A stretch of DNA of 64,000 bases, from the NCBI GenBank assembly GCA_964016885.1, contig OZ024742.1:261144001-261208000 (forward strand), written 5' to 3'. The notes below the pieces were generated by a model. It was not told the DNA's origin. It searched no databases and saw only the letters and a list, made by a program, of their open reading frames with translations. This document shows, piece after piece, positions 3,973-5,148 of this stretch. This DNA comes from Eledone cirrhosa (taxonomy: Eukaryota). How positions within the stretch are numbered: position 1 is the first letter of the stretch; each line of letters begins with the position of its first letter. The translations under genes and the position numbers were made by a program.

Positions 3973-5148
3973 ATGGCTAACCAGCAAAAATCCAAACAGA
4001 ACTGGTCTGATAATGAAATCGACATTCTAATAAACACATGGCATTGCCTTTCCCAAACAGAAAATATAGATGCTTCATCTCTGAACGACATTGCTAAACG
4101 TACAGTTCAATTTTTGAAAACTCGATCTGAACAACAGATTCAAAATAAATTAAAGCAAATCGAAATTGCTTTTAAATTAATCAATAAACATTTGGATAAA
4201 CTACGGTGTGTTTTCTCTTCGAATGCTGTCCAGCAGCAGCAACAACAACAACAGCAGCTACAACAGCAACAACAACAACAACAGCAGCTACAACAGCAAC
4301 AACAACAACATCAACAACAGCTACAACAACAACATCAACAACAGCAACAACAACAGTGTGAACCACTCCTTGATTCATCAACAATGGCCGATCTACTAAA
4401 TGAAACTATTGACCCCCCAGTAGCCTCTGTCTCACAGCATGAAACGCCACATCCTTTCTCTGGCCCAGCAGTCCAATCATCACCACTGCCAACATCTCTG
4501 CCTACTACTACTACTACTACTACAACATTTTTGTCTACTGCTATGTCAAGGAATTTACCTTCTAATACCAGAACAAGAACTCTCCCTCCCACAGTCCACA
4601 AAGGTCGTCAAATCCTACCCAAACCATCATCTACACCTCTCACAACACCCACACCCATATACCCACCCACTCGAAACCCCATCATTTGCCGCTACTCTCT
4701 ACGCTATAGAATATGTACGGATAGTGGCTGCAAATTCACCCATTTACCTAGGACAAAACGATCTATCCCCACAAACAGCCACCACCATAATACATACTCT
4801 AATTTAACACCAACACAACCACCAATAACTCAAACAAGGAATCCACAAATCTGCCGTTTTTCCCTGCGAGACAGATTGTGTTTAGACCGGGATTGTCCCT
4901 TTACCCATCTCCCGGGGACCCGTCGGATAAATGAAAATAAAATTAAAAATAAAAGCAAAAACAAAAACCATAACCTACATAAAAATAACCACTACCACAG
5001 TCACCAACAGTCTTCTAAACAGGAAACTTCTTCCTCTTTTTTAGCCATAATGAATCTGGCAAAAGAACTGGAAAAAAACATTCGAGCTATCACCCAGCAC
5101 CACCCTCCACTATCACCCCACTGCACAAACTCCCATTGCTGCCATTAA
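3973..5148 (+). CDS. LINE ORF1: Myb/SANT-like N-terminus, polyQ, T/P-rich linker, two CCCH zinc fingers
   Basis: 391-aa ATG ORF: NWSDNEIDILINTW..RSEQQIQNKLKQI; CRYSLRYRICTDSGCKFTH and CRFSLRDRLCLDRDCPFTH (C-x8-C-x4-C-x3-H). Confidence 0.85.
   Translation: MANQQKSKQNWSDNEIDILINTWHCLSQTENIDASSLNDIAKRTVQFLKTRSEQQIQNKLKQIEIAFKLINKHLDKLRCVFSSNAVQQQQQQQQQLQQQQQQQQQLQQQQQQHQQQLQQQHQQQQQQQCEPLLDSSTMADLLNETIDPPVASVSQHETPHPFSGPAVQSSPLPTSLPTTTTTTTTFLSTAMSRNLPSNTRTRTLPPTVHKGRQILPKPSSTPLTTPTPIYPPTRNPIICRYSLRYRICTDSGCKFTHLPRTKRSIPTNSHHHNTYSNLTPTQPPITQTRNPQICRFSLRDRLCLDRDCPFTHLPGTRRINENKIKNKSKNKNHNLHKNNHYHSHQQSSKQETSSSFLAIMNLAKELEKNIRAITQHHPPLSPHCTNSHCCH

What the first reader, a model, noticed from the sequence alone, without database searches (positions are those of the whole stretch)
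5019..5148. Intact LINE appears to express its APE-RT by -1 ribosomal frameshifting (or by splicing)
Seen: the ORF2 frame opens after TAA 5016-5018 and overlaps ORF1 by 130 nt in the -1 frame. Its first AUG (5460) lies past the first APE motifs (LLNAQG, LTETH), so it cannot start a complete protein. The overlap holds two X-XXY-YYZ heptamers in the correct ORF1 phase: U-UUU-UUA (5037-5043) and A-AAA-AAC (5073-5079). Known: these are the HIV-1 gag-pol and MMTV gag-pro slippery sites, whereas L1 and SART1 use re-initiation or stop-start coupling. Inference: a retrovirus-like ORF1-ORF2 fusion of about 1390 aa. Only a weak GCCA/TGGC hairpin follows the first site. CTTCTTCCTCTTTTTTAG also reads as a strong splice acceptor, so a spliced ORF2 mRNA is an alternative.
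Basis: partly seen in the sequence, partly recalled or inferred. Interest (0 to 1): 0.72.

Follow-up and report, generated by a model that had tools for sequence, protein, structure and literature searches.

The report
Conserved ribosome slip site in LINE
A young, abundant jumping gene (a LINE) has no start codon for its copying enzyme, and it and a dozen distant relatives all keep a 'slippery' seven-letter sequence where the second gene's frame opens inside the first gene, so the enzyme is most likely made by ribosomes slipping back one base, as in retroviruses.

Summary
Observation confirmed. The copy is a young, intact CR1-type LINE and its junction is the family's master layout: 37 of 39 copies chosen on the 5' UTR hold it unspliced. 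The overlap alone is weak evidence (two in-phase heptamers in 3.6% of shuffles); relatives are strong evidence. All 13 families of its CCCH-finger clade (11 at 36-48% APE identity, 2 found afterwards) have ORF2 in the -1 frame, no Met before APE, and a slippery heptamer on the same ORF1 Phe, 0-45 nt after the -1 frame opens. The letters differ: U_UUU_UUA 8, G_GAU_UUU 4, G_UUU_UUA 1. Across 28 -1-overlap families, 24 have an in-phase site, against 3 and 7 in control phases. U_UUU_UUA (5037-5043) is the conserved site; A_AAA_AAC is not. Splicing is poorly supported: the AG follows in 6 of 13 families, and 0 of 100 copies are spliced. No stimulatory RNA structure was found, and there are no RNA or protein data. 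Best reading: programmed -1 frameshift giving a 1394-aa fusion (0.8). A review states this mode for Dictyostelium TRE5-A, and this scan noted it before in vertebrate CR1s on other DNA.

The parts
3443..3972 (+). 5' UTR of this copy, 5'-truncated (about 730 nt in complete copies). Holds one ~51-nt monomer and a ~220-240-nt duplication; complete copies have no AUG here
3973..5148 (+). ORF1, 391 aa: weak Myb/SANT-like N-terminus, poly-Q, two C-x8-C-x4-C-x3-H fingers, C-terminal helix
   Evidence: (PF13837 E 0.0027, below cut-off)
4687..4743 (+). first CCCH-type finger of ORF1
   Evidence: pattern match
4852..4908 (+). second CCCH-type finger of ORF1
   Evidence: pattern match
5016..5018 (+). last stop in the -1 (ORF2) frame, 18 nt before the slippery site
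5037..5043 (+). U_UUU_UUA, predicted -1 shift site (ORF1 S-F-L); a slippery heptamer sits on the homologous Phe in 13 of 13 clade families
5038..5094 (+). ORF1 amphipathic-looking stretch FLAIMNLAKELEKNIRAIT, aligned by eye with FLxxLxQMKADL of relatives; a fusion would lack it
   Evidence: helix is inferred from the residue pattern
5073..5079 (+). A_AAA_AAC, second in-phase heptamer; not conserved beyond close subfamilies; at most an auxiliary site
5019..8156 (+). ORF2 frame (-1 to ORF1): linker, APE (first motif at 5208), RT (about 6771-7502); first AUG at 5460 lies inside APE
8157..8243 (+). 3' UTR with a stable fold (z -2.5) and the tail (TTCAAAGTTA)x2, followed by a TA microsatellite

Best explanation
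The element's endonuclease-reverse transcriptase frame has no start codon and opens in the -1 frame 18 bases before U_UUU_UUA (5037-5043) inside ORF1, and it is most likely expressed by programmed -1 ribosomal frameshifting at that site. Most ribosomes would finish the 391-aa ORF1 protein. A minority would slip back one base and make a 1394-aa ORF1-ORF2 fusion that keeps the N-terminal domain and both CCCH fingers, loses the C-terminal helix, and goes on through a linker of about 55 residues into APE and RT. Shown: the frames, the absence of Met, and the conservation and phase of the site. Inferred: the slip, the fusion protein, and a low slip rate (no 3' stimulator was found).
For: (1) Master layout: 37 of 39 copies selected on the 5' UTR have the unspliced junction and 24 of 39 have both ORFs intact. 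540 of the 630 exact matches to 5045-5068 carry the exact upstream 18 nt. (2) All 11 clade families with ORF1 held (36-48% APE identity to the window) have a -1 overlap of 130-544 nt, no Met before APE, and a slippery heptamer 0-45 nt after the -1 frame opens. With the twelfth member L211 they form one clade, support 100/99. (3) Anchored on the conserved ORF1 Phe, 11 of 11 are slippery against 1.5 expected from each element's own synonymous codon use (product 10^-12.8). D-F-x families use G_GAU_UUU and then do not use UUA for Leu; the other families all use UUU UUA. (4) Out of sample: the family of the truncated member L211 has U_UUU_UUA 6 nt after the -1 stop in 14 of 14 longer copies, and L270, another own-genome family, has it too. 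(5) The -1 frame stays open from the site to the ORF1 stop in 13 of 13 families (product about 10^-14 under synonymous recoding), while upstream it has a stop roughly every 12 codons. (6) Wider set: 28 families are -1 and 4 are +1. An in-phase heptamer occurs in 24 of 28, against 3 and 7 in the other phases (strict motif 17 against 3 and 6), and 21 of 28 lie within 48 nt of the frame opening. (7) Motif set from print: X_XXY_YYZ with GUU/GGA/GGU exceptions (PMC3542737 passages); G_GAU_UUU and U_UUU_UUA are known -1 sites (PMC5009743 passages).
Against: There are no RNA, ribosome or protein data. No 3' stimulator was found: downstream folds have mean z -0.37 (4 of 24 below -1.5) against control -0.06 (3 of 24); there is no consensus fold in 11 families; the window folds at z -0.44 to 0.33. 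Pairing with the tail ranks only 9 of 318 tiles for the window. The families share ancestry, so the products of probabilities overstate independence, and the exception motifs were taken from print after I had seen. Four of the 28 -1 families have no site (L119, L142, L150, L168), and 7 of 28 have a Met before APE. Only 10 of 18 decayed copies of an older subfamily and 3 of 5 of another keep the exact heptamer. In this family the site is also a good-looking acceptor, with one in-frame donor at 4206.
Confidence: 0.8

Rival explanations
1. AUG-independent termination-reinitiation, as proposed for mammalian L1: ribosomes ending at TAA 5146-5148 would restart at a near-cognate codon (CTG 5139, ATT 5160) and make a free ORF2 protein.
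For: Near-cognate codons in the ORF2 frame flank the ORF1 stop, 21 codons before APE. In every clade family the ORF1 stop lies a short way before APE. Reinitiation is described for SART1 and proposed for L1 (PMC5972666 and PMC5009743 passages). No stimulator structure was found.
Against: [quoted passage not shown] There is no stop-start AUG in the ORF2 frame; the TAATG at 5048-5052 leads into the ORF1 frame.
Confidence: 0.09
2. Splicing into the acceptor ...CTTTTTTAG|C (5044/5045) would make an ORF2 mRNA, for example from the donor at 4206, fusing the first 78 ORF1 residues to ORF2.
For: A pyrimidine-rich AG is present. ACG|GTGTGT at 4206 is in the right phase and present in 37 of 39 young copies. 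The AG follows the heptamer in 6 of 13 families, including all three own-genome families of the clade.
Against: The AG is absent after the site in 7 of 13 families, and L108 has none nearby. The 4206 donor is absent in 6 of 6 older-subfamily copies that hold the region. The complete 5' UTR has donors but no AUG, so splicing from it gives only a 32-aa ORF1-frame peptide. Of the first 100 listed of 630 copies, 82 match exactly upstream, 16 differ by point changes or subfamily, 2 are 5' truncations onto microsatellite DNA, and none is joined to an element donor. With cis-preference (recalled) a spliced ORF2 message should be the one copied.
Confidence: 0.05
3. Transcriptional slippage: RNA polymerase would add one U in the T6 run and fuse the frames in a fraction of transcripts.
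For: A T6 run is present in 8 of 13 families; copies with T5, T7 or T8 exist in the genome.
Against: G_GAU_UUU families have only four T's. Other lineages use U_UUA_AAC, G_GGA_AAC or A_AAA_AAC in strict ribosomal phase, which polymerase slippage does not require.
Confidence: 0.04
4. Coincidence: the heptamer is a by-product of a conserved Phe-Leu in the ORF1 protein, and ORF2 is made some other way.
For: The peptide FLxxLxQMKADL is conserved, and a single overlap has an in-phase heptamer in 25% of shuffles.
Against: Synonymous choice: TTT is used in 11 of 11 families, and TTA in 7 of 7 families without GAT-TTT, although their own TTA use is 8-36%. Two further families fit out of sample.
Confidence: 0.02

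Closest known systems
Dictyostelium TRE5-A and TRE3-A (APE-type non-LTR elements)
   Same: Overlapping ORFs; a review's figure legend states that both require a -1 frameshift for ORF2 (PMC5911963 passage; overlap also in PMC5633606 passages).
   Different: A different LINE lineage and host. I did not see the primary evidence or the shift site. Here the site is pinned down by conservation across 13 families, with three heptamer types.
HIV-1 gag-pol -1 frameshift and other X_XXY_YYZ sites (G_GAU_UUU in pea enation mosaic virus)
   Same: Same heptamers and phase; the shift lies upstream of the first ORF's C-terminal segment, which the fusion replaces (PMC5009743 and PMC3542737 passages). The MMTV attribution of A_AAA_AAC is recalled, not seen in a call.
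   Different: No stem-loop or pseudoknot 5-9 nt downstream was detected. The element is a non-LTR retrotransposon with no protease domain among its Pfam hits.
SART1 (UAAUG stop-start coupling) and mammalian L1 (unconventional reinitiation)
   Same: Bicistronic LINE RNA that must make little ORF2 protein (PMC5972666 passages).
   Different: They have an ORF2 AUG at or after the ORF1 stop and make a free ORF2p; here there is no AUG and a 130-nt -1 overlap.
CR1/L2 lineages of the Jockey superfamily, ORF1 types I-V (PMC4120745)
   Same: APE-RT ORF2, short tandem-repeat tail, and weak PHD hits in the ORF1 of relatives.
   Different: The paper has no occurrence of 'frameshift', 'overlap' or 'Myb' and none of 'CCCH' (listing). 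The CCCH fingers plus C-terminal helix fit none of the passages I saw; supplements were not read.

Membership tests
Autonomous APE-type LINE | ORF1 plus ORF2 with APE and RT, 5'-truncated dispersed copies, simple-repeat tail | tested here: met
CR1 lineage (Jockey superfamily) | RT/APE phylogeny groups with named CR1 references | not testable with these tools
   No named reference LINEs were available; the tree has none. The CR1-type label rests on recalled RT motifs and the tandem tail.
Programmed -1 ribosomal frameshift element | Downstream ORF in the -1 frame, open from the site onward, without its own start | tested here: met
Programmed -1 ribosomal frameshift element | X_XXY_YYZ heptamer in zero-frame phase, phylogenetically conserved | tested here: met
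   13 of 13 clade families; 24 of 28 overall against 3 and 7 in control phases
Programmed -1 ribosomal frameshift element | Stimulatory stem-loop or pseudoknot 5-9 nt downstream | tested here: not met
   No enrichment of local folds. Pseudoknots were not modelled, so only simple stems are excluded.
Programmed -1 ribosomal frameshift element | Transframe product shown by reporter, profiling or mass spectrometry | not testable with these tools
   needs experiment
Long-distance (3' tail) stimulated frameshift | Bases behind the site pair best with the element's 3' end | tested here: not met
   Tail rank 9 of 318 (window), 84 of 339, 40 of 331, 8 of 355 and 77 of 319 in this clade; met only in the distant L167 (1 of 324)
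SART1-type stop-start coupling | ORF2 AUG overlapping or adjoining the ORF1 stop | tested here: not met
   no ORF2-frame AUG before 5460
Spliced ORF2 mRNA | Conserved acceptor and in-frame donor; spliced transcripts or retrocopies | tested here: not met
   AG in 6 of 13 families, donor in 0 of 6 older copies, 0 of 100 spliced copies; transcripts themselves could not be examined

The most novel reading that the evidence does not exclude
Programmed -1 frameshifting is the usual way two-ORF CR1-type LINEs make their reverse transcriptase, so ORF2p is born as a Gag-Pol-like fusion across several deep lineages (four heptamer types, three ORF1 architectures in this survey). In this CCCH clade the slip needs no downstream RNA structure and could be set by the heptamer alone, the nascent peptide, or the ORF1 protein's own zinc fingers.
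Probability: 0.35. Interest if true: 0.85.

Novelty: new variant of a known kind. Interest (0 to 1): 0.63.

Why it matters
How LINEs translate ORF2 is worked out only for SART1 and partly for L1. If this holds, a large group of LINEs fixes the ORF1:ORF2 ratio and ties the enzyme to its own RNA-binding protein the way retroviruses do. That would explain the Met-less ORF2s of these elements and offer a simple basis for cis-preference. The site is exact, the family is young with hundreds of near-identical copies, and three natural heptamer variants occur at one homologous position, so a reporter test is cheap and decisive. A slip without a 3' structure would interest the recoding field.

Tried and rejected
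RNA evidence: no RNA holder listed. Contigs of four runs of unrecorded type laid on 3960-6200 showed no joint into 5045 among the 15 of 30 joints printed; this is not evidence on splicing, but it led to the older subfamilies. A second laying gave no result, so junctions from the 5' UTR were not examined in reads. ORF1 homolog search: 2 hits, both low-complexity. Viral contigs: 88 pattern matches, none confirmed. Genome contigs: 5 distant loci. Apparent Met starts of database ORF2 proteins: P0004's MKSNL reads V-K-S-N-L in the matching loci L095/L096, so it is a gene-caller start, not an AUG; P0003 was not checked at DNA level. Two 5'-intact copies lacking the junction (L060, L086) are internal deletions to 6586 and 5646, not joins to 5045. 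Local stimulator and tail pairing: not found in this clade. Second heptamer as main site: rejected (absent in 4 of 5 copies of one subfamily, and at this position in the divergent families). Dropped before counting: 29 of 87 loci without the APE N-terminus in an open frame and 2 open to the contig end; 10 of 42 clusters had no long partner ORF; only the best 80 of 198 metagenome loci were returned. Primary papers on SART1, TRAS1 and L1 translation were not held. No supplements were read.

Full report
The observation. All coordinates check out. ORF1 runs from ATG 3973 to TAA 5148 (391 aa). The ORF2 frame opens after TAA 5016-5018, is -1 to ORF1, overlaps it by 130 nt, carries APE and RT, and has its first AUG at 5460, well past FLLNAQG at 5208. 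U_UUU_UUA (5037-5043) and A_AAA_AAC (5073-5079) are both in the phase needed. By itself this is modest: two or more in-phase heptamers arose in 716 of 20000 dinucleotide shuffles, and one or more in 4906.

The element. It lies in a 3.0-Gb eukaryotic genome and belongs to a very young family: 40 of 40 scored matches (1449 candidates) are identical over 4850-5500, and 630 places match 5045-5068 exactly. To avoid selecting on the junction I took 39 copies by their 5' UTR. Of these, 37 hold the junction, one of them with compensating indels (L083), and 24 have both ORFs full length; 2 are internal deletions. Complete 5' UTRs are about 730 nt, with ~51-nt monomers and no AUG in 4 of 4 complete ones read. 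The tail is (TTCAAAGTTA)n and 37 of 39 copies are followed by TA-rich DNA. The junction is therefore the master layout of an active family, not damage. The CR1-type label rests on recalled motifs; no named references were available.

Relatives. An alignment of ORF2 homologs fetched the best 80 of 198 metagenome loci. With the window, 4 genome-contig loci and 2 own-genome loci, 87 loci were classified. 31 were dropped (APE start not held, or frame open to the contig end) and the rest gave 42 families at 70% APE identity: 28 with a -1 overlap, 4 with +1, and 10 with no long partner. Using the published motif with its GUU/GGA/GGU exceptions (PMC3542737 passages), 24 of 28 have an in-phase heptamer against 3 and 7 in the other two phases (strict motif: 17 against 3 and 6). 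The first site lies within 48 nt of the frame opening in 21 of 28, where the upstream ORF1 rate predicts 6% per family. 21 of 28 have no Met before APE. Four have no site, three of them with doubtful partner frames.

The window's clade. Twelve rows form a clade (100/99). The 11 with ORF1 held mostly share C-x8-C-x4-C-x3-H fingers (9 of 11; the other two contigs are short or cut) and a C-terminal FLxxLxQMKADL-like stretch. All 11 have no Met before APE and a heptamer on the same Phe, 0-45 nt after the last -1 stop: U_UUU_UUA in 6, G_GAU_UUU in 4 and G_UUU_UUA in 1. Each element's own codon use predicts 1.5 of 11. The pattern is compensatory: D-F families get their slip from G_GAU_UUU and use CUG, CUC or CGG next, while the others all use UUU UUA. 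The twelfth row, L211, was 5'-truncated; its longer copies have U_UUU_UUA 6 nt after the -1 stop in 14 of 14. L270, a further own-genome family not in the tree, has it as well. In all 13 the -1 frame is open from the site to the ORF1 stop (34-174 codons; single-family probabilities 0.009-0.53 under synonymous recoding). These families share ancestry, so the products are not true p-values, but at 36-48% protein identity synonymous sites should be saturated (inference). Decayed older subfamilies in the own genome keep the exact first site in 10 of 18 and 3 of 5 copies; the second site is lost in 4 of those 5.

Splicing. The AG follows the heptamer in 6 of 13 families. One in-frame donor exists at 4206 in the young family (37 of 39) but in 0 of 6 older copies that hold the region. 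5' UTR donors have no AUG before them. Of the first 100 of 630 copies, none is joined to an element donor; L283 begins exactly at 5045 but on microsatellite DNA, which I read as a 5' truncation. No RNA holder was listed, so transcripts remain unexamined.

Stimulator. None was found: downstream folds equal controls and the clade has no consensus fold. Following an earlier scan note, I tested pairing with the 3' tail in the 8 elements with a complete ORF2. It ranks first only for L167 of a distant lineage (1 of 324 tiles, -42 kcal/mol); for the window it ranks 9 of 318, and 8-84 for four clade members. Pseudoknots were not modelled. A low, heptamer-driven slip rate is the simplest reading (inference).

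Mechanism. Most likely a minority of ribosomes slip -1 at U_UUU_UUA and make a 1394-aa fusion that keeps the ORF1 fingers but not the C-terminal helix (0.8). The rivals are non-AUG reinitiation (0.09), splicing (0.05), polymerase slippage (0.04) and coincidence (0.02).

What is known. A review legend states that TRE5-A and TRE3-A need a -1 frameshift for ORF2 (PMC5911963, passage). The 2016 frameshifting review mentions HeT-A and TART and favours novel initiation for L1 (PMC5009743, passages from the first 300,000 characters). SART1 and L1 use reinitiation (PMC5972666, passages). Passages of PMC5633606, PMC1965478, PMC4700185 and PMC4120745 gave no CR1 frameshift. Ten full-text searches (listings only unless named above) showed no paper describing a conserved slippery site in CR1-type LINEs. 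Most subscription and older papers are outside the library, and I recall that early descriptions of overlapping LINE ORFs suggested frameshifting. This scan has noted the same idea in vertebrate CR1s and one other LINE lineage on other DNA; no note matched this sequence or genome. Those notes are leads, not support.

Verdict. A real, conserved, testable recoding signal, and a new variant of a known kind. What this locus adds is a clade in which the shift site sits inside ORF1, before a conserved C-terminal segment, switches among three heptamers at one position, and shows no RNA stimulator.

Noticed in passing
L220, L269, L277-L279 (own genome, another abundant family, 957-codon ORF2 frame): ORF1 ends G_GGA_AAC-UAA with ORF2 in the -1 frame and no Met before APE in all 4 longer regions read: a second, distant LINE lineage in the same genome with a canonical -1 site directly at the stop.
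   Followed up: partly
L167 (metagenome contig), site at 1004 and 3' tail: The 40 nt after A_AAA_AAC pair with the element's last ~60 nt (-42 kcal/mol, best of 324 tiles), matching the tail-pairing idea of earlier scan notes; not seen in the window's clade.
   Followed up: partly
L145, L147 (metagenome contigs): LINEs with an SGNH/GDSL esterase ORF1 also carry in-phase G_GAU_UUU or U_UUA_AAC near the ORF1 end, though each has a Met before APE.
   Followed up: partly
window 2221-3418 and 8835-10043: The LINE sits in a TA run between inverted copies (94% over 1230 nt) of another element whose frames (2199-2795 +, 9469-10350 -) look by eye like a Penelope-type RT/GIY-YIG end; no Pfam hit.
   Followed up: partly
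family-wide flanks (L051-L089): Strong association with (TA)n microsatellites: 37 of 39 copies have a TA-rich 3' flank; possibly a targeted LINE.
   Followed up: partly
L086 (G000:C5:79031235-79036935): An internal deletion from about 4678 to 5646 fuses ORF1 in frame to the middle of APE, giving a 930-aa frame without the CCCH fingers.
   Followed up: partly
window 14748-16616 (-), 55605-56120 (+), 60154-62500 (+): Broken copies of a different, RTE-like APE-RT element; the 60154-61017 frame has a PHD hit inside an RT C-terminal context. The RTE label is recalled.
   Followed up: no
window 30273-30992 (-): Pif1-type helicase fragment, probably Helitron-derived.
   Followed up: no
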